From contig NZ_DASSYD010000207.1 in NCBI RefSeq assembly GCF_035703485.1, positions 8,126-72,125 on the forward strand: a stretch of DNA of 64,000 bases, read 5' to 3'. Below the pieces are notes generated by a model. That model was given only the letters and a program-made list of their open reading frames with translations, searched no databases and was not told where the DNA came from. The translations under genes and the position numbers were made by a program. The DNA comes from Dokdonella sp. GTDB taxonomy: Bacteria; Pseudomonadota; Gammaproteobacteria; Xanthomonadales; Rhodanobacteraceae. Numbering within the stretch: the stretch's first letter is position 1; every line of letters begins with the position of its first letter. Of this stretch, positions 952-26,552 are shown in pieces.

Positions 952-1011
952 GAGCGCGAAATACCCAGTTTCCAGACGGATACCGAGTTTGGCACAAGGG
1001 GTTGATGAATC

Positions 1012-1089
1012 GGGAGTGGGGAGTGGGGAGTGGGGAGTGGGGAGTGGGGAGTGGGGAGCGGGGAGCGGGGAGCGGGGAGCGGGGAGCGG
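1012..1089 (+). repeat. Tandem heptanucleotide array: 6 x GGGAGTG then 5 x GGGAGCG (G4-N3 periodicity)
   Basis: Read directly from the sequence. It lies in the divergent intergenic region between the WYL regulator (start 951) and the molybdoenzyme gene (start 1317). Confidence 0.95.
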
Positions 1090-1316: not shown

Positions 1317-4136
1317 ATGCCCCACGCATCACTTGCCCTGAATACGCCGACCGCAGACGAGGTCAAGACCACCACGTGCTACATGTGCGCGTGTCGCTGC
1401 GGCATCCGCGTCCATCTGAAGGATGGCCGCGTGCGCTACATCGACGGCAACCCGAAGCACCCGGTCAATCGCGGGGTGATCTGCGCCAAGGGTTCGTCCG
1501 GAATCAAACAACATTATTCGCCAGCGCGCTTGTCGAAGCCGCTGTTGCGAGTCGGCGAACGCGGTGCTGGCGCGTTCCGCGAGATTGAATGGGATGAAGC
1601 GCTGGAGCTGGCGGCCAAATGGCTGGGTGATATCCGTCAACGCAATCCCGATGAACTCGCTTTTTTCACCGGGCGCGATCAATCCCAGGCGCTGACCGGC
1701 TGGTGGGCGCAGCAATTCGGCACGATCAATTACGCGGCCCACGGAGGCTTCTGCTCGGTCAACATGGCCGCCGCCGGCATGTACACGTTCGGCGGCAGCT
1801 TCTGGGAGTTCGGCGAACCGGACTGGGATTTGACCAAGTACCTGATGCTCTGGGGCGTCGCCGAGGATCACGATTCCAACCCGATCAAGCTCGGCCTCGG
1901 CAAACTGAAGGCGAACGGGGCCAAGATCGTCGCGATCAATCCGGTGCGTACCGGCTATGGCGCAATTGCCGATGAATGGGTGCCGATCAATCCGGGCACC
2001 GATGGTTTGCTCGCTGGCGCGTTTATCCACGAACTGCTGCGCAACGACCGCATCGATCTCGAGTATCTGGTGCGCTATACGAATGCTCATCACCTGGTCA
2101 TTCGCGATCCGGGTGCGGCCGATGACGGCTTGATCGCACGCGATGGCGACGGGCAGGCGCTGTGTGCGGCGCGCCGCGATGACGGCGAGGGGAACGCAAT
2201 CGTTCGCGCCAACGGCGTGGATGTTTCGCCACTGGTAGTTGGTGAATATCAACTGCCTGATGGACGCAAGGCGATTCCTTCGTTCCAGTTGATCGCCGAG
2301 CGCTTTCTTGCGGACGACTATTCGCCTGATGCGGTAAGCGAGCGTTGTGGCGTCGACGTCGAGACCATTCGTCGACTCGCCCGTGAACTCGCCGAGACAG
2401 CATTCGATCAGGCGATTACGCTCGATCAGCCGTGGACCGACAGCCACGGACGCGAACACGCAACCATGGTCGGCCGCCCGGTTTCGATGCATGCCATGCG
2501 TGGCATCTCGGCACATTCAAACGGCTTCCATACCTGCCGCACCTTGCACGTTTTGCAGATGTTGCTCGGCGCAATCGATACACCGGGAAGCTTCCGCTAC
2601 CAGCCACCGTATCCAAAACCGGCGCCGCCACCGAATCGCCCGGGCAAATCGCGCAAGGCCGACGGCACGCTCGACGGCGGCCCGCTCGGCTATGTGCAGT
2701 CGCCGGATGATTTGCTGGTCGATGCCGATGGCCAGCCACGGCGCCTCGACAAGGCCTATTCGTGGCAGCACCCGCTGGCCGCGCACGGCATCATGCAATC
2801 GGTGATCCGCAATGCCTGGGCCGGCGATTCGGGTCATATCGACACCTTGTTCATGTTCATGGCCAACATGGGCTGGAACTCGTCGATGAATACCAGCGAG
2901 ACGCGGCGCATGCTGCGTGATCGCGATGAGGCAACCGGCGAATACCGGATCCCGCACATCATCTATTCGGACGCCTATTTGTCCGAAACCGTCGCCTTCG
3001 CCGATCTTGTTTTGCCTGATACGACATATCTGGAACGCCACGACTGCATCAGCATGCTCGACCGGCCAATCTCGGATGCTGATTGCGCTGCCGATGCGAT
3101 CCGCCAGCCGGTGGTCGAACCTGATCGCGATGTGCGGCCGTTCCAGGATGTATTGATCGATCTCGGCACGCGGATCGGATTGCCCGGCTTGCTTAACGAG
3201 GATGGCAGCGGCAAATATCCCGGCGGATTCGCCCAATACATGGTCGAACACGAGCGCGCGCCCGGGGTCGGCATGCTCGCCGGCTGGCGTGGCGCCGATG
3301 GCTCAAAATCTGGCTTCGGCGAGCCGAATCCGGATCAGATCAAACGCTATATCGAGCACGGCTGCGTCTGGGAAGCCAAAATTCCCGATGCCGGGCGTTA
3401 TTACAAGATGGCCAATCGCGATTATCTGTCGTGGGCCAAATCGCTGGGTTTCGTCGGCTCGACTGATGCCATCGTCATGCAGCTCTATTGCGAAACCCTG
3501 CAACGGTTTCGTCTGGCCGCGCAGGGTCATGGCGCGCAACAGCCGCCCGAGAGCGAGCGTCAACGTGTCGAGCGCTATTTCGATCCGATTCCATTCTGGT
3601 ACGAAAGAGTCGAGCAACCGTCCGCCAGCGGCAATGAGCTGACCAGCGACTACCCTCTTTCCGCAATCACTCAGCGGCCGATGTTCATGTATCACAGCTG
3701 GGGTTCGCAAAATACCTGGCTGCGCCAGATCACTGCGCGCAACTACCTGTATCTGAATCCGCAGACGGCTGAAGCCAACGGCGTCGGCGATGGTGACTGG
3801 ATCTGGCTGGCATCGCCGCTCGGCCGCATCCGCGTGCAGGCAAGATTTCATTCTGCGACCGCGCCCGGAACATTGTGGACATGGAACGCAATCGGCAAGC
3901 GCAAAGGCGCCTGGAGACTTGATGCCGATGCGCCGGAATATCGCGATGCCTTTCTGCTCAATCACCTGATCAATGAGCTGCTGCCTTCGGATCGAAAGTC
4001 ACCGGGCTACGCAAATGCCGATCCGGTCACCGGCCAGGCCGCCTGGTTTGATCTGCGCGTGCGCATCGAGCGTGATCCGTCGCCGCTGGAAGATGGTCAT
4101 CGCATCGAGATGAACGACAAGAGGGCGGTCGAGTGA
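1317..4136 (+). CDS. Molybdopterin (bis-MGD) oxidoreductase catalytic subunit with no Tat signal, so predicted cytoplasmic; SoeA-like by operon architecture
   Basis: 939-aa ORF. The N-terminal 4Fe-4S motif is CYMCACRCG...VICAKG, followed by typical Mo-oxidoreductase blocks (GRDQS, INPVRT, TDG). No twin-arginine leader is present in MPHASLALNTPTADEVKTTT. Confidence 0.85.
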   Translation: MPHASLALNTPTADEVKTTTCYMCACRCGIRVHLKDGRVRYIDGNPKHPVNRGVICAKGSSGIKQHYSPARLSKPLLRVGERGAGAFREIEWDEALELAAKWLGDIRQRNPDELAFFTGRDQSQALTGWWAQQFGTINYAAHGGFCSVNMAAAGMYTFGGSFWEFGEPDWDLTKYLMLWGVAEDHDSNPIKLGLGKLKANGAKIVAINPVRTGYGAIADEWVPINPGTDGLLAGAFIHELLRNDRIDLEYLVRYTNAHHLVIRDPGAADDGLIARDGDGQALCAARRDDGEGNAIVRANGVDVSPLVVGEYQLPDGRKAIPSFQLIAERFLADDYSPDAVSERCGVDVETIRRLARELAETAFDQAITLDQPWTDSHGREHATMVGRPVSMHAMRGISAHSNGFHTCRTLHVLQMLLGAIDTPGSFRYQPPYPKPAPPPNRPGKSRKADGTLDGGPLGYVQSPDDLLVDADGQPRRLDKAYSWQHPLAAHGIMQSVIRNAWAGDSGHIDTLFMFMANMGWNSSMNTSETRRMLRDRDEATGEYRIPHIIYSDAYLSETVAFADLVLPDTTYLERHDCISMLDRPISDADCAADAIRQPVVEPDRDVRPFQDVLIDLGTRIGLPGLLNEDGSGKYPGGFAQYMVEHERAPGVGMLAGWRGADGSKSGFGEPNPDQIKRYIEHGCVWEAKIPDAGRYYKMANRDYLSWAKSLGFVGSTDAIVMQLYCETLQRFRLAAQGHGAQQPPESERQRVERYFDPIPFWYERVEQPSASGNELTSDYPLSAITQRPMFMYHSWGSQNTWLRQITARNYLYLNPQTAEANGVGDGDWIWLASPLGRIRVQARFHSATAPGTLWTWNAIGKRKGAWRLDADAPEYRDAFLLNHLINELLPSDRKSPGYANADPVTGQAAWFDLRVRIERDPSPLEDGHRIEMNDKRAVE

Positions 4137-5899
4137 CCTTGTCGCAATGGATGACCCTGGTGATCGTGATTGGCGCGGTCGCCTTGTTTGCCAGTGAAAA
4201 AGTTCGCATCGATCTGGTTGCCCTGATCGTTCTGGTGTTGCTGGTGATCCTGCAACTGGTCTCGCCGGTCGAGGCGCTCGCCGGATTCAGCAACGAGGCA
4301 ACGATCACGGTCGCGGCGATGTTTGCCCTGAGTCTCGGCATCGAGCGTTCGGGCGCGCTGGAACCGCTGGGCCGCCTGCTCTCGCGAATCCGCAAGCCGT
4401 GGCTGCTGACTCTCGCCTTGATGCTGGCGATTGCGCCGATGGGTGCTTTCGTCAAGAACATCGCGCTGGTGGCGACGTTTCTGCCGCTGGCGCTGCGCGT
4501 TTGCGCAAACACCGGCACCTCGCCCGCACGCGTATTGCTGCCAATGGCCTATGCCGCACAAATGGGTGGCGTCTGCACCCTGATCGGCACCTCGTCGAAC
4601 CTGCTCGCCGACAGCCTCGCCCAGCAACACGGCATCGCCGGTTTCGGCGTATTCGAGTTCACTCGCCTGGGCGCGCTGCTGGCCGTGGTCGGCATCACTT
4701 ACCTGATGCTGGTCGGGCGCTGGTTGCTACCCAAGGAAATTTCCCCGGTGGCCGCCGCCGAGACCGATATCGGCAAGTACGTTACCGAACTCAAGATCAC
4801 GACGGATTCGCCCCTGGTCGGGCAGACCATCGCCGACGCCAAACTGGGTGACAAGTACAGCATCTACCCGCTCGAACTGCTGCGCGGCGATCGCCATCTG
4901 TGGTCACCGCGCTCGCAGGTACTGGAAGTCGACGATGTGTTGTTGGTGCGCGGTGACTGGGACAAGATCGAGGACTTCCGCAAGCGCGCCGAACTCGAAA
5001 TCGATCCGGAGAACCGCTTCGGGACCGACAAGAGCAGCGCGCGCATCCTCGTCGAGGTCATGGTCAAGCCGGCAACAGCCATCGAAGGCAGCTCATTGGG
5101 TGAGCTCGATTTCAATCACAACCACGATGCCATCGCGCTCGCCATCCACCAGCGCGGGCGCATCCTGCGTGACAAGCTCAAGGATGTGCGCCTGACCGCC
5201 GGTGACGTACTCCTGCTGCTGGTCAACGAAGCGGGCGCTACTGCCTTGCGCAGCGAGGAACAGTTTGTCGTTCTGAGTGAGCGTGAAGATACCCGGCGCA
5301 CACCGAAACGGGCGATCGCCGCGGTGCTCATCATGATTGCCGTCGTCGTGGTCTCCGGCCTGCACTGGTTGCCGATCCCGGTGGCGGCGATTGCCGGTGC
5401 CGTAGCCATGGCCGCCGCAGGTTGCTATGGACGCAAGGATCTCTACGAAGGTATCGACTGGAAGATCATTGTCCTGCTGGCAGCGATCCTTCCGCTCGGC
5501 ACGGCCATCGAAAACAGCGGCTTGTCGCAAACGCTCGTCGAATCGAGCATGGGTCTGGTCGGCGAACACGGTCCACTGGCGGCCCTGCTCATGGTTTATC
5601 TGCTGACTGCCCTGCTCACGGAGCTGATGGGACACAACCCGTCCGTCGTGCTGATGGTGGGTATCGCGGTCACGGTGGCGCATTCGGTGGGCGCCGATCC
5701 GCGCCCGTTTGTGGTCGCTGTGGCATTTGCAGCGGCGACCTCGTTTGCGACGCCGGTTGGCTATCCGACCAACACCATGGTTTATTACGCGGGCGGTTAC
5801 CGTTTCGTGGATTTCATGAAAGTCGGCATCCCGCTGATTGCAATCTTCTGCGCCATCTCGATGTATCTGATTCCCCTGTTCTGGCCCTTGCAACCATGA
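4133..5899 (+). CDS. SLC13/DASS-family anion permease with two central TrkA-C (RCK_C) domains
   Basis: 588-aa polytopic ORF. The hydrophobic N- and C-terminal halves flank a soluble segment (LKITTDSPLVGQTIADAKL... and ...VMVKPATAIEGSSLGELDF) typical of TrkA-C inserts. GTG start overlaps the upstream stop, and its stop overlaps the next ATG (ATGA). Confidence 0.85.
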   Translation: MTLSQWMTLVIVIGAVALFASEKVRIDLVALIVLVLLVILQLVSPVEALAGFSNEATITVAAMFALSLGIERSGALEPLGRLLSRIRKPWLLTLALMLAIAPMGAFVKNIALVATFLPLALRVCANTGTSPARVLLPMAYAAQMGGVCTLIGTSSNLLADSLAQQHGIAGFGVFEFTRLGALLAVVGITYLMLVGRWLLPKEISPVAAAETDIGKYVTELKITTDSPLVGQTIADAKLGDKYSIYPLELLRGDRHLWSPRSQVLEVDDVLLVRGDWDKIEDFRKRAELEIDPENRFGTDKSSARILVEVMVKPATAIEGSSLGELDFNHNHDAIALAIHQRGRILRDKLKDVRLTAGDVLLLLVNEAGATALRSEEQFVVLSEREDTRRTPKRAIAAVLIMIAVVVVSGLHWLPIPVAAIAGAVAMAAAGCYGRKDLYEGIDWKIIVLLAAILPLGTAIENSGLSQTLVESSMGLVGEHGPLAALLMVYLLTALLTELMGHNPSVVLMVGIAVTVAHSVGADPRPFVVAVAFAAATSFATPVGYPTNTMVYYAGGYRFVDFMKVGIPLIAIFCAISMYLIPLFWPLQP

Positions 5900-6708
5900 C
5901 CAGCCTGCCCCCACCCACCGCGCGCAAGCTCGGTCTCGTCATTGACCTCGACACCTGCGTCGGCTGTCACGCCTGCGCGGTGGCCTGCAAGGAATGGAAC
6001 GACGGCGGATCGTTCGGACCATTGCCGGATGCCGATCCCTATGGCGCCGAGCCGAATGGGGTCTGGTTCAATCGGGTGCATTCTTATGAAGCGGGAGTGG
6101 GGAGTGGGGAGTGGGGAGTGGAAAAGGCAAATGCTTCCTGCTCTCCTACTCCCCTCTCCCCACTCCCTACTCCCGCTTCTGCTCAATCAATCCACTTCCC
6201 GCGTTCGTGCCTGCATTGCGAGACGCCGGCTTGCGTGACGGTGTGTCCGACCGGGGCGAGTTACAAGCGCGCCGAGGATGGCATCGTGCTGGTTGATGAG
6301 GACAAGTGCATCGGCTGCCAGTTGTGCGCCTGGGCCTGCCCTTACGGCGCGCGCGAGTTCAGCGCGAAACGTGGCGTCATGCAGAAGTGCACGTTGTGTG
6401 TCGATCGTATCTACAACGAAACGCTGGATGAGGCGGATCGGCAACCGGCCTGCGTGATGGCCTGCCCGACCCGGGCCCGACATTTTGGCGATCTCGGCGA
6501 TGCCGAGTCCGATGTTTCGAAGCTTGTCGCCGAACGCGGCGGCTACGCGCTGATGCCGGAATTTGGCTACAAGCCGGTCAATCGCTACTTGCCACCACGT
6601 CCGCGCAAGGACGCATCGGCGGCAAAAAAGGCCGCCATCGCCGAACCAATCGACACCACGCAAATGTCCCCGCTGCTGCGCTGGGTCGATCGCGTGCTGT
6701 CGCGCTGA
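5896..6708 (+). CDS. 4Fe-4S dicluster electron-transfer subunit (DmsB/PsrB/SoeB-like) carrying an in-frame repeat-encoded insert
   Basis: Start chosen at MTSLPPPTARKLGLVIDLDTCVGCHACAVACKEWN. Further Cys groups follow: CLHCETPACVTVCP, CIGCQLCAWACP, CTLCVDR...CVMACP. The upstream 158 codons of the track ORF overlap the transporter and are not counted. Confidence 0.85.
   Translation: MTSLPPPTARKLGLVIDLDTCVGCHACAVACKEWNDGGSFGPLPDADPYGAEPNGVWFNRVHSYEAGVGSGEWGVEKANASCSPTPLSPLPTPASAQSIHFPRSCLHCETPACVTVCPTGASYKRAEDGIVLVDEDKCIGCQLCAWACPYGAREFSAKRGVMQKCTLCVDRIYNETLDEADRQPACVMACPTRARHFGDLGDAESDVSKLVAERGGYALMPEFGYKPVNRYLPPRPRKDASAAKKAAIAEPIDTTQMSPLLRWVDRVLSR
6091..6176 (+). repeat. Heptamer-hairpin element inside the Fe-S subunit CDS (G-rich arm, 17-nt loop, degenerate C-rich arm)
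   Basis: Sequence is gcgggagtggggagtggggagtggggagtgg-aaaaggcaaatgcttcc-tgctctcctactcccctctccccactccctactcccgc. It translates in-frame as GVGSGEWGVEKANASCSPTPLSPLPTPAS. Confidence 0.85.
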
Positions 6709-6720
6709 GCAGGACTGACG

Positions 6721-7791
6721 ATGCGCCCTTCTTTCTCGATCATTTTTTTCACCGTCCTGTCGGGAGCTGGCTACGGGCTGTGGATGCTGGTCGGCCTCAC
6801 GTTCGCCTTGCAATGGCCGAATTGCGTGCCCGATGGCAATCTGTCGGGCGTCGATCGCGAAACCGTTCTTTGCATCGTCCCGGATGCGATCACTTATGCG
6901 TTCGGCGCGGGCTGGCTGCTGGTTGTCTCGGGTCTGGTTGCCTCCGTTGGACACCTGGGCAAACCGCTGCGTGCCTGGCGCGCATTTTCCCAGTGGCGAA
7001 GCTCCTGGCTGTCGCGTGAGGGCATTTCCGCTCTGCTCACCTTCCTTCCTGCCGTTGCCATGGTGCTCTACGCAATGCTGGTTTCCTTGCAGCTGAGCCA
7101 GGTTGATGTCGGCGATTCGTTCACTCCGTGGATTGACCGCAGAGTCATTCGTTTGCTCGGCGCGGTACTCGCTTTCGGCTCGCTGGCAACGGTCTATTGC
7201 ACCGCTAACATCTACGCATCCCTGAAGCCGATTTCCGGCTGGAACAACCGTTTCGTCATGCCGATTTATCTTGTCCTGGCGATTCACGGTGGATTGCTTC
7301 TGCTGTGGCTGCTGAATACCTTGCCATCTGCATGGGTGACGATGGGAGAGCCTCTTGAGGCCCGCTGGAACCTCGTGATCGGCTTGGGTGTCCTGCTTTT
7401 TTCCGTGCTGGGCGCTGCGCTCAAGTTGATTTACTGGAAGCAGATCGATCGCAAGCAAACGACGACGACAGCCGACGCCATCGGTCTCGCTTCACTCGAC
7501 AACGTGCGCTCATTCGAGCAGCCGCATACGGAAGAGAACTATCTGACCCACGAAATGGGCTTCCGCATTGCGCGCAAGCATTCGCGGAAGTTGCGCATGA
7601 TCTGCCTGAGTGCGGGTTTCGCCGTTCCAGCGATTCTGGCAACCCTGAGCCTGGTGATACCGGGCCTGGGCGTGGCTGCTGCGTGGGTTTCCGTGTTCAG
7701 CGGCATGCTCGGCATTTTCATCGAGCGCTGGTTGTTCTTCGCCGAAGCCAAACATGCGGTGATGCTCTATTACGGCGCACGCGATGCATGA
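6721..7791 (+). CDS. DmsC/NrfD-like integral membrane anchor subunit (SoeC-like position)
   Basis: 356-aa ORF with about 8-9 hydrophobic spans. The N-terminus MRPSFSIIFFTVLSGAGYGLWMLVGL resembles the DMSO-reductase anchor family. It lies directly after the Fe-S subunit. Confidence 0.7.
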   Translation: MRPSFSIIFFTVLSGAGYGLWMLVGLTFALQWPNCVPDGNLSGVDRETVLCIVPDAITYAFGAGWLLVVSGLVASVGHLGKPLRAWRAFSQWRSSWLSREGISALLTFLPAVAMVLYAMLVSLQLSQVDVGDSFTPWIDRRVIRLLGAVLAFGSLATVYCTANIYASLKPISGWNNRFVMPIYLVLAIHGGLLLLWLLNTLPSAWVTMGEPLEARWNLVIGLGVLLFSVLGAALKLIYWKQIDRKQTTTTADAIGLASLDNVRSFEQPHTEENYLTHEMGFRIARKHSRKLRMICLSAGFAVPAILATLSLVIPGLGVAAAWVSVFSGMLGIFIERWLFFAEAKHAVMLYYGARDA

Positions 7792-25342: not shown

Positions 25343-25540
25343 GGGGAGTGGGGAGTGGGGAGTGGGGAGTGGGGAGTGGGGAGTGGGAAATAGGAAAAGC
25401 CGCTCGCGGTATGCGATATCGTCGCAATTGATTCCATCTTCGGCGAGATCTTGAAAATGCGCTGGTGGGTCGAATGAGGTTGAACTCGTCACGCATTGCT
25501 TTCCTATTTCCCACTCCCCACTCCCCACTCCCCACTCCCA
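25343..25540. repeat. Heptamer inverted-repeat element filling the whole mutM/tdk convergent intergenic region
   Basis: The left arm is (GGGGAGT)x6 + gggaaataggaaaagc. The right arm is gctttcctatttccc + (ACTCCCC)x4. About 95 nt of unrelated sequence lies between the arms. Confidence 0.9.
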
Positions 25541-26162: not shown

Positions 26163-26170
26163 TTACGAGC

Positions 26171-26552
26171 GGGAGTGGGGAGTGGGGAGTGGGGAGTGGG
26201 GATTTGGCAAGTCAAGAGCCCTTAAGGCAACGCTGATCAAGTGGCGCAATCGTCACGACACCTGTCTGCGTGCAGACAGGTGTCGCCTAACCGATTGATT
26301 TTATTGAAACAGGTGGCATCCAGAAGGTCCGCCAGTCGTGCTGCGCGGCTCGTCAAGGCAACCAGCCTTCACTTCGCCACGCAGCACGACTGGCGAACCT
26401 TCTGAAGGCCATGACGGTTGTGCCACTTGATCAGCGTTGCCTTAATTGTGCCCGTGTGCGGCGATTGCGTCATGTAATGGGTGGCTGGACCGGTCGTCTA
26501 TGCGAAAATCCCGCGCTGTTGCCTGCCTACTCCCTACTCCCCACTCCCGCTC
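26171..26552. repeat. Split heptamer-hairpin element (G-rich arm 26171-26201, C-rich arm 26527-26552) with a MITE-like element lodged between the arms
   Basis: gggagtggggagtggggagtggggagtgggga ... ctactccctactccccactcccgctcc. It lies in the divergent region between tdk and rep. Confidence 0.7.
26223..26444 (+). mobile_element. MITE-like non-autonomous element, copy 1 (222 bp, 22-bp terminal inverted repeats, no ORF)
   Basis: The ends are aaggcaacgctgatcaagtggc ... gccacttgatcagcgttgcctt. Internal long hairpins are gacacctgtctgc/gcagacaggtgtc and cagaaggtccgccagtcgtgctgcg/cgcagcacgactggcgaaccttctg. It is nearly identical to 33565-33850. Confidence 0.75.

What the first reader, a model, noticed from the sequence alone, without database searches (positions are those of the whole stretch)
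6091..6176. Heptamer-hairpin repeat embedded in-frame inside the Fe-S subunit coding sequence
An element of about 84-86 bp with the same G-rich heptamer arm, short loop and degenerate C-rich arm seen in intergenic copies sits inside the ORF. It falls between the first (CVGCHACAVACKEWN) and second (CLHCETPACVTVCP) cysteine groups and reads through as GVGSGEWGVEKANASCSPTPLSPLPTPAS without breaking the frame. As I recall them, DmsB/PsrB-type subunits have a much shorter linker at this position. This looks like a repeat insertion that was tolerated, or domesticated, as a surface loop. It also places a strong hairpin or G4 within an mRNA.
Basis: seen in the sequence. Interest (0 to 1): 0.65.

Follow-up and report, generated by a model that had tools for sequence, protein, structure and literature searches.

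The report
Heptamer hairpin repeat translated inside SoeB
A G-rich 7-base repeat hairpin of a kind normally found between genes in Xanthomonas-type bacteria sits in frame inside an intact iron-sulfur subunit gene, where it is read as a floppy loop, and the same spot has taken up such repeats many times in related bacteria.

Summary
In window 6093-6121, (GGGAGTG)x4.1 faces a degenerate (ACTCCCC)x3.9 at 6148-6174. The full stem runs 6088-6179 (RNA -77 kcal/mol, z -11). It lies in frame in an intact SoeB-like 4x[4Fe-4S] gene (5896-6708). Three other GGGGAGT sites in the window are intergenic.

The element belongs to the G-rich heptamer simple-repeat class, which often occurs as convergent inverted pairs. 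That class is described for Xanthomonas and Nostoc (PMC4692102). Here the unit is new and the position is coding.

It occupies the tip of a beta-hairpin between Cys motifs I and II. AlphaFold2 predicts a low-confidence loop there.

Across 162 orthologous loci this loop is 9-81 aa long:
- 53 loci keep a short loop (15 aa or less; observed 9-14 aa), inferred to be ancestral.
- 41 carry heptamer arrays of at least 12 different units.
- 10 carry other palindromes.
- 58 have long loops without detectable structure.

The window's copy is inherited within a Dokdonella-like clade. The core gene has dN/dS 0.02-0.08 and the insert 0.4-0.6. The G arm changes far less than synonymous sites do, and both arms switched heptamer together. 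[quoted passage not shown]

SoeA has two similar insertion hotspots. Verdict: a tolerated in-frame repeat, comparable to Rickettsia palindromic elements. It is a new variant of known kinds, and any function is unproven.

The parts
5896..6708 (+). SoeB-like four-cluster iron-sulfur subunit gene (270 aa) that hosts the element
   Evidence: Translation is intact. Pfam gives Fer4_11 and related domains. The best homologues (88-93% identity) come from Dokdonella and Xanthomonadales metagenome-assembled genomes, and JGI names some of them 'sulfite dehydrogenase (quinone) subunit SoeB'. No NCBIfam model passes its cutoff. The fold matches PsrB 2VPW_B with TM-score 0.85 on the target. Core dN/dS is 0.02-0.08.
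6088..6179 (+). Complete hairpin: outer stem GAAGC/GCTTC, both heptamer arms and the spacer
   Evidence: strand folding gives RNA -77.3 kcal/mol (z -11.3) and DNA -40.5 kcal/mol (z -10.3). No curated Rfam family matches; there are only sub-threshold generic hits to miRNA-precursor hairpins.
6093..6121 (+). G arm, (GGGAGTG)x4.1, perfect; encodes GVGSGEWGV; fits the G-quadruplex motif
   Evidence: It shows 0 differences in 32 positions against L081 and 2 in 32 against L083, although core dS is about 0.5.
6122..6147 (+). Spacer (loop of the hairpin); encodes EKANASCS; homologous to the spacers of L081, L083, L001, L002 and L205, with a 15-nt indel
   Evidence: Alignment A3. It diverges at roughly the neutral rate, 8-15 differences in 24 positions plus the indel.
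6148..6174 (+). C arm, degenerate (ACTCCCC)x3.9; encodes PTPLSPLPTP
   Evidence: Tandem Repeats Finder gives 85% matches. It shows 3-4 differences in 31 positions against L081 and L083. Of the three departures from a perfect complement of the G arm, two are read as C-to-T changes that would keep G-U pairs (my reading of the sequence, not tallied by a tool).
6091..6189 (+). Protein loop A66-S98 (33 aa) between beta-strands; the short orthologous loops are 9-14 aa
1010..1089 (+). Solo array (GGGGAGT)6(GGGGAGC)5 with no C arm, in the divergent region between a WYL-type regulator gene and soeA
   Evidence: The orthologous place holds (GGCAATG)3 in L081 and only remnants in L083.
25343..25539 (.). 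Intergenic family member: (GGGGAGT)x6.4, about 120 nt of spacer, then (CCCACTC)x4.3; lies between convergent genes that I read as fpg-like and tdk-like (not tested)
26167..26552 (.). Intergenic family member: (GGGAGTG)x4.6, 320 nt of spacer, then a degenerate C arm; the spacer holds a nested 224-bp element with 34-nt terminal inverted repeats
1317..4136 (+). SoeA-like molybdopterin subunit gene (operon context)
   Evidence: Pfam domains Molybdop_Fe4S4, Molybdopterin and Molydop_binding.
4133..5899 (+). DASS/CitMHS transporter gene with two TrkA_C domains, lying between soeA and soeB
   Evidence: The arrangement is conserved in L081 and L083.
6721..7791 (+). DmsC-like membrane anchor gene (SoeC-like)
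   Evidence: Pfam DmsC.

Best explanation
What it is. The element is a copy of the G-rich heptamer repeat class of Xanthomonadales, in its usual 'convergent pair' form: a G-rich array, a spacer, then the complementary C-rich array. It has come to lie in frame at the tip of a beta-hairpin between Cys motifs I and II of a functional SoeB-like Fe-S subunit.

Why it is tolerated (shown):
1. 7 and 3 share no factor, so a heptamer array reads as the same 7-aa repeat in every frame. GGGGAGT and ACTCCCC contain no stop codon in any frame.
2. The arms encode Gly/Ser/Trp-rich and Pro/Ser/Thr-rich peptides, which are predicted to be disordered.
3. The site accepts 9 to 81 residues in nature.

History. 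The copy was inherited from the ancestor of a Dokdonella-like clade (shown by the homologous spacer).

What is maintained. The maintained thing is the nucleic acid, not the peptide. The G arm is nearly invariant where synonymous sites have diverged by about 0.5 substitutions per site. The C arm drifts mostly in ways that keep pairing. In sister lineages all units of both arms have switched together, GGGGAGT/ACTCCCC to GGGGAAT/ATTCCCC.

How that happens (inferred). Slippage within each array, plus arm-to-arm correction or selection for the stem or the G-tracts, homogenises the repeat. The spacer and the peptide drift.

Why here (inferred). Repeats of this and other palindromic families insert, or arise, widely in these genomes. 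Inside genes they survive only at permissive surface loops. This SoeB loop and two loops of SoeA are such places.

No benefit to the cell is demonstrated. The most likely status is a tolerated, self-perpetuating structure that puts a very strong hairpin, with G-quadruplex potential, into the soe mRNA.
For: Family membership. The same heptamer occurs at 4 sites in 64 kb, 30 matches against 0.36 expected. There are convergent pairs with about 4 units per arm, as described for GGGNATC in Xanthomonas: 183-186 repeats per genome, 70-75 convergent pairs, a preference for 4 units, and G-quadruplex formation in vitro (PMC4692102).

Hairpin. z -11.3 as RNA and -10.3 as DNA.

Functional host gene. Core dN/dS is 0.018-0.079 against L081, L083, L001 and L002. 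Insert dN/dS is 0.41-0.58.

Loop position. Strands 59-66 and 97-104 flank residues with pLDDT of about 46-55, in a model with mean pLDDT 83. The fold matches PsrB.

Permissive site. In 162 orthologous loci the loop is 9-81 aa. 53 are short, 41 have heptamer arrays (34 of them with hairpin z below -4), 10 have other palindromes and 58 are long without structure.

Stop-free arms. Nearly all heptamers seen at this site have no stop on either strand. GGGGCTA does contain TAG, and in the soeB arms I examined it runs to about 2-3 units read in a frame that avoids TAG, whereas intergenic arrays reach 3.4-6.6 units.

Inheritance. The spacer and flanks align across window, L081, L083, L001, L002 and L205.

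Concerted change in both arms. Four stem pairs switch GC to AU in the Dokdonella-like clade. Five pairs show double changes in a second clade, GGGGCCA to GGGGCGA.

Arm conservation. G arm 0-2 differences in 32, C arm 3-4 in 31, spacer 8-10 in 24 plus a 15-nt indel, at core dS 0.47-0.53.

Generality. SoeA has two in-frame insertion hotspots, after residues about 285-297 and about 762-780, each with about 20-30 listed inserts among 70 loci. The transporter (72 sequences) has no internal insert of 12 aa or more, only one 12-aa extension at the N-terminus. SoeC (26 sequences) has none.
Against: - No transcript, ribosome or protein data exist for this locus, so translation through the hairpin is inferred from purifying selection on the gene.
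- The way the element arrived is unknown. No target-site duplication, cognate transposase or RAYT gene was identified.
- Conservation of the arms could equally reflect selection for a function.
- Heptamer arms are about 100 times denser in this loop than in the about 1.4 Mb of flanking DNA examined, and about 10 times denser than in its intergenic part. This is a rough estimate, inflated by shared ancestry. It is more than simple tolerance predicts.
- Solvent exposure within the SoeABC complex was not modelled; only the monomer was.
Confidence: 0.75

Rival explanations
1. The hairpin or G-quadruplex is a selected cis-regulatory element of the soe operon. It acts in the mRNA or DNA, for example by slowing ribosomes, serving as a processing or RNase III site, protecting the upstream soeA-transporter message, or acting as a K+-dependent G-quadruplex switch. 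On this view its recurrence at this position is convergent selection.
For: - The arms are conserved well below the synonymous rate while the peptide drifts.
- Both arms change together in two clades.
- Hairpins at the same loop recur in many lineages, with about 22 state changes on a neighbour-joining tree.
- The density here exceeds that of the flanking intergenic DNA.
- Four units per arm matches what a G-quadruplex needs (PMC4692102).
Against: - About a third of orthologues (53 of 162) do well with a short loop.
- Many long loops have lost all structure (58 of 162 with z near 0), and some look like decayed hairpins, for example L008, L010, L074 and L206.
- Unrelated palindrome families occupy the same site, and two loops of SoeA behave the same way. 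That points to a tolerance filter.
- There is no U-tract, so the hairpin is not an intrinsic terminator.
- No expression data exist.
Confidence: 0.13
2. The arms were not inserted as a ready-made mobile element. They grew in place: a short seed expanded by replication slippage, and the opposite arm arose by fold-back (template-switch) inverted duplication. Arm-to-arm correction followed.
For: - Solo arrays exist: window 1010-1089, and loops with only a G arm such as L057, L239 and L017.
- Units turn over in place within inherited elements.
- Spacers of different copies are unrelated and range from 26 to 320 nt.
- No target-site duplication or transposase was seen.
- The Xanthomonas repeats were reported as not associated with insertion sequences (PMC4692102).
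Against: - An ARAGC motif follows G arms at soeB and at other sites: 17 of 51 and 7 of 46, against a background of 1.5%. It pairs with GCTYT before the C arm. Window copies also share a GARGC-type outer stem.
- These shared features suggest a common element rather than independent births.
- The ancestral short loop has no G-rich seed.
Confidence: 0.3
3. The 33-aa segment is a domesticated protein feature, with a role in SoeABC assembly, membrane contact or redox tuning (for example through Cys82). The repeat DNA is only its historical source.
For: - Almost all long loops contain one Cys and the short loops contain none.
- A Tahibacter-type 29-30 aa loop, VQPRRDAAGNGPLQQLAKTGFAENAPAMT, is conserved as a peptide with no hairpin. 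So domestication at this site appears possible.
Against: - Insert dN/dS is 0.41-0.58 against 0.02-0.08 for the core.
- The peptide differs completely between lineages, following whichever heptamer is present.
- Length varies from 9 to 81 aa.
- pLDDT is low.
- The Cys codon may simply be a by-product of GCTGC/GCAGC-type palindromes (my inference from the sequences).
Confidence: 0.05
4. The feature is an assembly artefact or lies in a pseudogene: repeat-induced misassembly put an intergenic repeat into the gene.
For: Short-read (Logan) contigs from metagenomes break at the repeat.
Against: - The same element, in the same frame, is present in independent assemblies: L081 (GCA_016721015.1), L082 (a separate ENA contig encoding the identical protein) and L083. 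It is also present with other heptamers in dozens of genomes, including the isolate Dokdonella fugitiva A3, and in decayed one-arm form in Dokdonella ginsengisoli.
- The reading frame is open and all Cys motifs are intact.
- The core is under strong purifying selection.
Confidence: 0.02

Closest known systems
G-rich heptameric simple sequence repeats of Xanthomonas (GGGAATC / GGGNATC) and Nostoc (GGGGA(C/T)T), Rehm et al. 2015, PMC4692102
   Same: - A 7-nt unit with a G3-4 tract.
- Dispersed in many copies.
- About four units preferred.
- Frequent convergent inverted pairs that can form stem-loops.
- The sequence fits a G-quadruplex motif.
- The host is in the same order (Xanthomonadales/Lysobacterales).
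- Not linked to insertion sequences.
   Different: - The unit is GGGGAGT, not GGGNATC. Related genomes use at least 12 other units.
- This copy is intragenic, on the coding strand and in frame. The paper reports such positions as under-represented and excluded them from its transcript analysis.
- In the passages I searched I found no mention of orthologous-site recurrence, of both arms changing together, or of repeats being translated as loops.
Rickettsia palindromic elements (RPEs), Ogata et al. 2000/2002, as summarised in PMC10969869
   Same: A palindromic repeat inserted in frame into conserved, functional protein-coding genes, read through as an extra peptide segment at a structurally permissive place. 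It is seen as 'selfish DNA' tolerated by the protein.
   Different: - RPEs are about 150 bp with a conserved sequence and a conserved encoded peptide per family. Here the arms are tandem heptamers, the spacer is variable and the peptide is not conserved.
- The host lineage is different.
- No sequence relationship was tested or is expected.
REP / REPIN elements mobilised by RAYT transposases
   Same: Two inverted short repeats that form a hairpin (a REPIN-like doublet). They are multi-copy and mostly intergenic, with lineage-specific sequences.
   Different: - The arms are tandem arrays of variable copy number, not a fixed 20-35-nt REP.
- No RAYT gene was looked for or seen.
- A distinct REP-like family (CTCTCCC...GGGAGAGG, giving peptides such as PSPGGRGAQ or GEGARRADEG) occupies the same loop in Lysobacter-type orthologues and occupies the SoeA loops.
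Cyanobacterial STRR heptamer repeats and other heptamer arrays such as TAACTGA of Beggiatoaceae (PMC4679880)
   Same: Tandem 7-nt units that are abundant and mostly intergenic. Exact (GGGAGTG)4 arrays are common in Nostocales, and also occur in Acidobacteriota and Thiobacillus.
   Different: Those are mostly direct arrays without a paired inverted arm, and they are not reported here as in-frame loops. The resemblance to STRR rests on my own knowledge.
Intragenic MITEs, ERIC and BOX elements (reviewed in PMC10969869)
   Same: Small non-autonomous repeats with inverted termini that sometimes create in-frame fusions with host ORFs.
   Different: No target-site duplication or parent insertion sequence was found, and the internal sequence is not conserved between copies.

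Membership tests
G-rich heptameric quadruplex-type repeats (Rehm et al. 2015) | Tandem 7-nt unit containing a G3-4 tract (consensus GGGNATC in Xanthomonas; GGGGA(C/T)T in Nostoc) | tested here: met
   Period 7, unit GGGGAGT. The unit differs at 1-2 positions from the published consensus, so this is a variant unit.
G-rich heptameric quadruplex-type repeats (Rehm et al. 2015) | Many dispersed copies in the genome, far above chance | tested here: met
   Four sites in 64 kb; 30 matches against 0.36 expected. The whole genome is not available.
G-rich heptameric quadruplex-type repeats (Rehm et al. 2015) | Preference for about four units; frequent convergent inverted pairs | tested here: met
   4.1 and 3.9 units here. 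Three of the four window sites are convergent pairs.
G-rich heptameric quadruplex-type repeats (Rehm et al. 2015) | Forms a G-quadruplex (shown by circular dichroism and melting in K+) | not testable with these tools
   The sequence fits G3+N3 repeated four times. The competing duplex stem is predicted at -77 kcal/mol.
G-rich heptameric quadruplex-type repeats (Rehm et al. 2015) | Predominantly intergenic, close to ORF ends | tested here: not met
   This copy is 195 nt inside a 813-nt ORF, on the coding strand. The other three window sites are intergenic. This is a tendency of the class, not a strict criterion.
RPE-like in-frame palindromic elements | A palindromic repeat present in several genomic copies and inserted in frame in a conserved, intact gene | tested here: met
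RPE-like in-frame palindromic elements | The insert lies at a surface or permissive position of the host protein | tested here: inconclusive
   The monomer model puts it in a low-pLDDT loop at a beta-hairpin tip, and natural length variation of 9-81 aa supports tolerance. The SoeABC complex was not modelled.
RPE-like in-frame palindromic elements | A conserved element sequence and a conserved encoded peptide within a family | tested here: not met
   The spacer and peptide differ between copies and lineages. So it works like an RPE but is not a member.
MITE | Terminal inverted repeats plus target-site duplication; a related autonomous insertion sequence | tested here: inconclusive
   Inverted arms are present. 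No direct duplication flanks the element in the copies inspected. Transposases were not searched for.
REP/REPIN-RAYT | A fixed REP sequence in inverted doublets, with a cognate RAYT gene flanked by REPs | not tested
   No RAYT search was done. The arms are variable-number tandem arrays, which is atypical for REPs.
SoeB (Fe-S subunit of cytoplasmic sulfite:quinone oxidoreductase SoeABC) | A four-cluster ferredoxin subunit encoded with a molybdopterin subunit and an NrfD/DmsC-type anchor | tested here: met
   16 Cys in four motifs. Gene neighbours are identified. The fold matches PsrB.
SoeB (Fe-S subunit of cytoplasmic sulfite:quinone oxidoreductase SoeABC) | Orthology to characterised SoeB, and sulfite-oxidising activity | tested here: inconclusive
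   Only JGI's name on homologues of 88-90% identity supports it. No NCBIfam equivalog passes its cutoff. Activity cannot be tested here.

The most novel reading that the evidence does not exclude
The hairpin or G-quadruplex is not a passenger. On this reading heptamer hairpins are either installed at this codon position again and again by a site-preferring mechanism, for example homing on the GAAG(T/C) microhomology at Tyr-Glu-Val. Or they are retained because a strong, K+-sensitive structure early in soeB tunes translation or mRNA processing of the sulfite-oxidation operon. The low divergence of the arms and their joint switching would then reflect selection on an RNA or DNA structure embedded in a coding sequence.
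Probability: 0.12. Interest if true: 0.8.

Novelty: new variant of a known kind. Interest (0 to 1): 0.52.

Why it matters
G-rich heptamer repeats are abundant in Xanthomonadales and cyanobacteria. Their origin, spread and function remain open questions (PMC4692102).

A copy fixed inside a strongly conserved gene gives three things that intergenic copies cannot:
- an exact orthology anchor across more than 100 genomes;
- a built-in neutral clock, the host gene's synonymous rate;
- a readable record of gain, unit turnover and decay.

Here that record shows three things. The arms are kept as nucleic acid at well below the neutral rate. Whole arrays switch unit on both arms together. Structure eventually decays into an ordinary long loop.

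It also shows how repeat DNA feeds new low-complexity loops into an essential redox enzyme, at three hotspots in one operon. This extends the Rickettsia-type 'coding palindrome' phenomenon to free-living Gammaproteobacteria.

In practice it flags a source of odd Gly/Ser/Pro-rich segments in annotated proteins and of assembly breaks inside genes. It also offers a natural test case for translation through a hairpin of about 30 bp that could also form a G-quadruplex.

Tried and rejected
- Expression. No RNA run holds the window's gene. DNA metagenome contigs break at the repeat and say nothing about expression. Metatranscriptome contigs laid on the Dokdonella fugitiva locus cover only conserved parts, contributed by other relatives, some of which lack the insert.
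- First AlphaFold2 run. With 24 close homologues it was unusable (pLDDT 38). A second run with 41 more diverse sequences worked.
- Known RNA family. Rfam gives only sub-threshold matches to eukaryotic miRNA-precursor models, which means a generic long hairpin. Rejected.
- Intrinsic terminator or promoter at the element. None found.
- Plasmid origin. No match.
- 'One heptamer per species, genome-wide concerted evolution'. In the loci that carry both a soeB hairpin and other arrays, the units agree in only about 4 of 15 (window, L002, L030, L046). Genomes carry several heptamer families. Rejected as a general rule.
- Target-site duplication, or locus-specific flank complementarity as a signature of fold-back origin. 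The window's three pairs each have 4-5 extra complementary bases, but these resemble one another (GARGC or TGAA). Other loci lack them. Inconclusive.
- Single ancient insertion explaining all hairpins. Unlikely. Short loops with conserved sequence, which the short-looped wider SoeB family suggests are ancestral, are interspersed with hairpin-bearing sisters at 90-94% core identity. Spacers are unrelated between clades. The neighbour-joining tree is not bootstrapped, so the count of gains (about 22 state changes) is rough.
- NCBIfam naming of SoeA/B/C. No model passes its cutoff.
Full report
1. THE OBSERVATION

The window between 6088 and 6179 holds a near-perfect long hairpin. Tandem Repeats Finder reports (GGGAGTG)x4.1 at 6093-6121 with 100% matches, and (ACTCCCC)x3.9 at 6148-6174 with 85% matches. 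A 26-nt spacer separates the two arrays, and the stem is extended by GAAGC/GCTTC.

The hairpin folds at -77.3 kcal/mol as RNA (z -11.3) and -40.5 kcal/mol as DNA (z -10.3). None of 200 shuffles folds as well.

The heptamer is a family in this genome. GGGAGTGGGGAGTG with up to 2 mismatches is found 30 times, against 0.36 expected. The matches fall at four places:
- a solo 11-unit array at 1010-1089;
- this element;
- two intergenic convergent pairs at 25343-25539 and 26171-26548.

The element lies inside the ORF 5896-6708. The ORF reads through it as ...SYE-AGVGSGEWGVEKANASCSPTPLSPLPTPASAQS-IHFPRSC... without a stop, and all sixteen cluster-binding cysteines are in place.

2. THE HOST GENE

The protein is a four-cluster ferredoxin-type subunit (Pfam Fer4_11 and related). 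It is encoded after a molybdopterin subunit (1317-4136) and a DASS/TrkA_C transporter (4133-5899), and before a DmsC-like anchor (6721-7791).

Its closest relatives (88-93% identity) come from Dokdonella, Rhodanobacteraceae and Xanthomonadales genomes. JGI names several of them 'sulfite dehydrogenase (quinone) subunit SoeB'. No NCBIfam equivalog passes its cutoff, so 'SoeB-like' is a name by annotation transfer only.

The gene is under strong purifying selection. Outside the insert, dN/dS is 0.018-0.079 against four relatives. It is not a pseudogene.

3. WHERE THE INSERT SITS IN THE PROTEIN

The closest solved structure by sequence is PsrB of Thermus polysulfide reductase (2VPW_B, E 5e-34). 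Query residues 36-102 correspond to PsrB residues 28-55, so the linker is 66 aa against 27 aa.

A first AlphaFold2 run on a shallow alignment failed (pLDDT 38). A second run on 41 more diverse sequences gave mean pLDDT 83 and pTM 0.75. It shows strands 59-66 and 97-104 flanking the insert, with block-mean pLDDT of 46 for residues 71-80 and 55 for residues 81-90.

The model matches PsrB with TM-score 0.85 on the target and also matches ArrB. The insert is therefore the tip of a beta-hairpin between Cys motifs I and II and is predicted to be disordered. Exposure within the SoeABC complex was not modelled.

4. ORTHOLOGUES: A PERMISSIVE LOOP AND A RECURRENT HOTSPOT

I collected 162 orthologous loci with DNA. 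They comprise 80 from species-representative genomes, 80 from metagenomes, two close relatives and the window itself. I extracted the segment between WFNRVH and FPRSC from each.

The loop ranges from 9 to 81 residues. Classification:
- 53 loci have a short loop of 9-14 aa, such as VEPTEKNKPPMT or VEQATPAGTRELT.
- 41 carry heptamer arrays. 27 have both arms, 7 have one arm decayed but still a significant hairpin, and 7 have one arm only.
- 10 carry a different palindrome, mostly REP-like, with peptides such as PSPGGRGAQ or GEGARRADEG.
- 58 have a long loop without detectable structure. Several of these look like decayed hairpins (L008, L010, L074, L206, L211).

At least twelve different units occur at this one site: GGGGAGT, GGGGAAT, GGGAATC, GGGATTC, GGGGATT, GGGGCCA/GGGGCTA, GGGGCGA/GGGACGA, GGGGACC/GGGACCC, GGGAGCC, GGGACTC/GGGGACT, GGGGAGA and GGGAGAC.

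SoeB-family representatives from outside the order have a short loop (YEVGEFPATETVHFPKSC). Short is therefore inferred to be the ancestral state.

On a neighbour-joining tree of the core protein, short-loop and hairpin-bearing taxa are interspersed, and parsimony needs about 22 state changes. In one clade the short-loop loci L044 and L024 are 90-94% identical in the core to L013, L012/L248 and L260. Those three groups carry hairpins with different units and unrelated spacers; L241 and L259 (88-90% to the short-loop loci) carry two more. Several independent acquisitions are the simplest reading. The exact number is uncertain because the tree has no support values.

5. THE WINDOW'S COPY IS INHERITED, AND THE ARMS EVOLVE AS NUCLEIC ACID

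The element, its flanks and its spacer align base for base with those of L081 (GCA_016721015.1), L083, L001, L002 and L205. The only gap is a 15-nt indel in the spacer.

Core dS to L081 and L083 is 0.47-0.53. Over the same comparisons:
- the G arm differs at 0 of 32 and 2 of 32 positions;
- the C arm differs at 3-4 of 31 positions;
- the spacer differs at 8-10 of 24 positions, plus the indel;
- the short linker after the C arm differs at 7-14 of 24 positions.

Insert dN/dS is 0.41-0.58, and the encoded peptide simply follows whichever heptamer is present. So what is conserved is the repeat DNA or RNA, not the peptide.

Between the window group and the L001/L002/L205 group, the sixth base of every unit changed on both arms: GGGGAGT/ACTCCCC to GGGGAAT/ATTCCCC. 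This gives four stem pairs with GC-to-AU double changes. Mixed intermediates exist in L002 and L205.

A second clade with homologous spacers (L012, L265 and L030 against L223, L248 and L255) shows the same behaviour, GGGGCCA/GGGGCTA to GGGGCGA, with five double-change pairs.

These are few evolutionary events counted over many positions. They show concerted turnover with complementarity kept. They do not by themselves prove selection, because slippage plus arm-to-arm correction would produce the same pattern.

6. WHY THE READING FRAME SURVIVES

A heptamer array is read in all three phases within 21 nt, so it gives the same 7-aa repeat in any frame. GGGGAGT gives GEWGVGS and ACTCCCC gives TPHSPLP, and neither contains a stop.

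The same holds for nearly every unit seen at this site. About 80% of GGGNNNN units are stop-free on both strands, against 50% of all heptamers.

The exception is GGGGCTA, which contains TAG. In the soeB arms I examined it runs to about 2-3 units and is read in a frame that avoids TAG, whereas intergenic arrays of it reach 3.4-6.6 units. Only the total length and the spacer need to be frame-compatible.

7. THE PHENOMENON IS GENERAL IN THIS OPERON

Aligning SoeA from 70 loci to the window's SoeA shows two further in-frame insertion hotspots. They lie after residues about 285-297 and about 762-780. The inserts are 12-74 aa, with about 20-30 listed at each hotspot. They are mostly REP-like, and some still fold significantly.

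L012 carries a (TCAGCCC)4 heptamer array in one of them. The close relative L081 has a 39-aa insert that the window lacks.

The transporter (72 sequences) has no internal insert of 12 aa or more, only one 12-aa extension at the N-terminus. SoeC (26 sequences) has none. This pattern fits repeats arising or inserting widely and surviving only at permissive loops of the soluble subunits.

8. COMPARISON WITH WHAT IS KNOWN

Rehm et al. (PMC4692102) described GGGNATC repeats in Xanthomonas. They report 183-186 per genome, 70-75 convergent inverted pairs, a preference for four units, G-quadruplex formation in vitro, no link to insertion sequences and under-representation in coding regions. They also described GGGGA(C/T)T repeats in Nostoc.

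The window's family has the same architecture with a different unit. Exact (GGGAGTG)4 arrays are widespread in Nostocales and also occur in Acidobacteriota and Thiobacillus.

G arms at soeB and elsewhere tend to be followed by an ARAGC motif: 17 of 51 and 7 of 46, against a background of 1.5%. This motif pairs with GCTYT before the C arm, which hints at a shared element core.

Functionally the closest analogue is the Rickettsia palindromic element: in-frame palindromes in functional genes at structurally tolerated positions (PMC10969869). RPEs, however, have a conserved sequence and peptide, which is not the case here. No Rfam family matches, and the hairpin is not an intrinsic terminator.

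9. WHAT REMAINS OPEN

- Whether the mRNA hairpin or quadruplex affects expression is untested. No RNA data were found.
- How the arms arrive is unknown: a mobile element or growth in place.
- Why this loop is so often occupied is unknown. By my rough estimate, arms are about 100 times denser here than in the about 1.4 Mb of flanks, and about 10 times denser than in the intergenic part. Shared ancestry inflates this figure.
- The idea that each species has one heptamer fails. Units in soeB and in neighbouring arrays agree in only about 4 of 15 loci.

10. VERDICT

It is best described as an in-frame, vertically inherited member of the Xanthomonadales G-rich heptamer inverted-repeat class. It is tolerated as a disordered loop of a functional SoeB-like protein and is maintained at the nucleic-acid level. 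The site has repeatedly captured such repeats.

It is a new variant of known kinds (G-quadruplex-type heptamer repeats and RPE-like coding palindromes). It is moderately interesting, mainly as a calibrated natural system for studying how these repeats evolve.

Noticed in passing
window 26222-26445: A 224-bp MITE-like element lies nested inside the spacer of the intergenic heptamer pair 26171-26202 / 26523-26548. It has 34-nt terminal inverted repeats (TTAAGGCAACGCTGATCAAGTGGC..., 94% complementary) and an internal 36-nt palindrome.
   Followed up: partly
window 1010-1089: A solo array (GGGGAGT)6(GGGGAGC)5 without a C arm lies in the divergent region between a WYL-type regulator gene and soeA. 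The orthologous place holds (GGCAATG)3 in L081 and only G-rich remnants in L083, so turnover is very fast.
   Followed up: partly
window 4133-5899: A DASS/CitMHS-type transporter gene with two TrkA_C domains is inserted between soeA and soeB, with overlapping ATGA stop/start codons at both ends. The arrangement is conserved in L081 and L083. It may be a sulfate or sulfite carrier coupled to the enzyme.
   Followed up: no
L012:589-4041 and SoeA of about 70 loci (window SoeA residues about 285-297 and about 762-780): There are two in-frame insertion hotspots in SoeA, filled mostly by REP-like palindromes (peptides such as HPHPNPPP..GEG or PSPQPSPP..GERE) and once by (TCAGCCC)4. L081 has a 39-aa insert that is absent from the window.
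   Followed up: partly
L015, L021, L025, L027, L042, L049, L235, L240 (SoeB loop): Tahibacter-type orthologues share a conserved 29-30 aa loop, VQPRRDAAGNGPLQQLAKTGFAENAPAMT, with no hairpin (z about 0). The peptide is conserved, so an insert at this site may have been domesticated.
   Followed up: no
SoeB loop of most loci with long loops (window residue C82, nt 6139-6141): Almost every long loop contains one cysteine (..ASCS....TGCAS..), while the short loops contain none. This is probably a by-product of GCTGC/GCAGC-type palindromes, but it remains unexplained.
   Followed up: no
3' side of G arms in window and loci (e.g. window 6122-6135, 25388-25405): An ARAGC motif occurs within 18 nt after G arms: 17 of 51 soeB arms and 7 of 46 other arms, against a background of 1.5%. 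It pairs with GCTYT before the C arm, which suggests a conserved inner stem shared by elements with different heptamers.
   Followed up: partly
L266:3195-3440 (SoeB loop, 80 aa): The C-arm side has been amplified as about 45-nt tandem copies (peptide SASAPLDSRLSSHGP repeated three times), giving the longest loop but one in the set. This is a secondary duplication inside an in-frame element.
   Followed up: no
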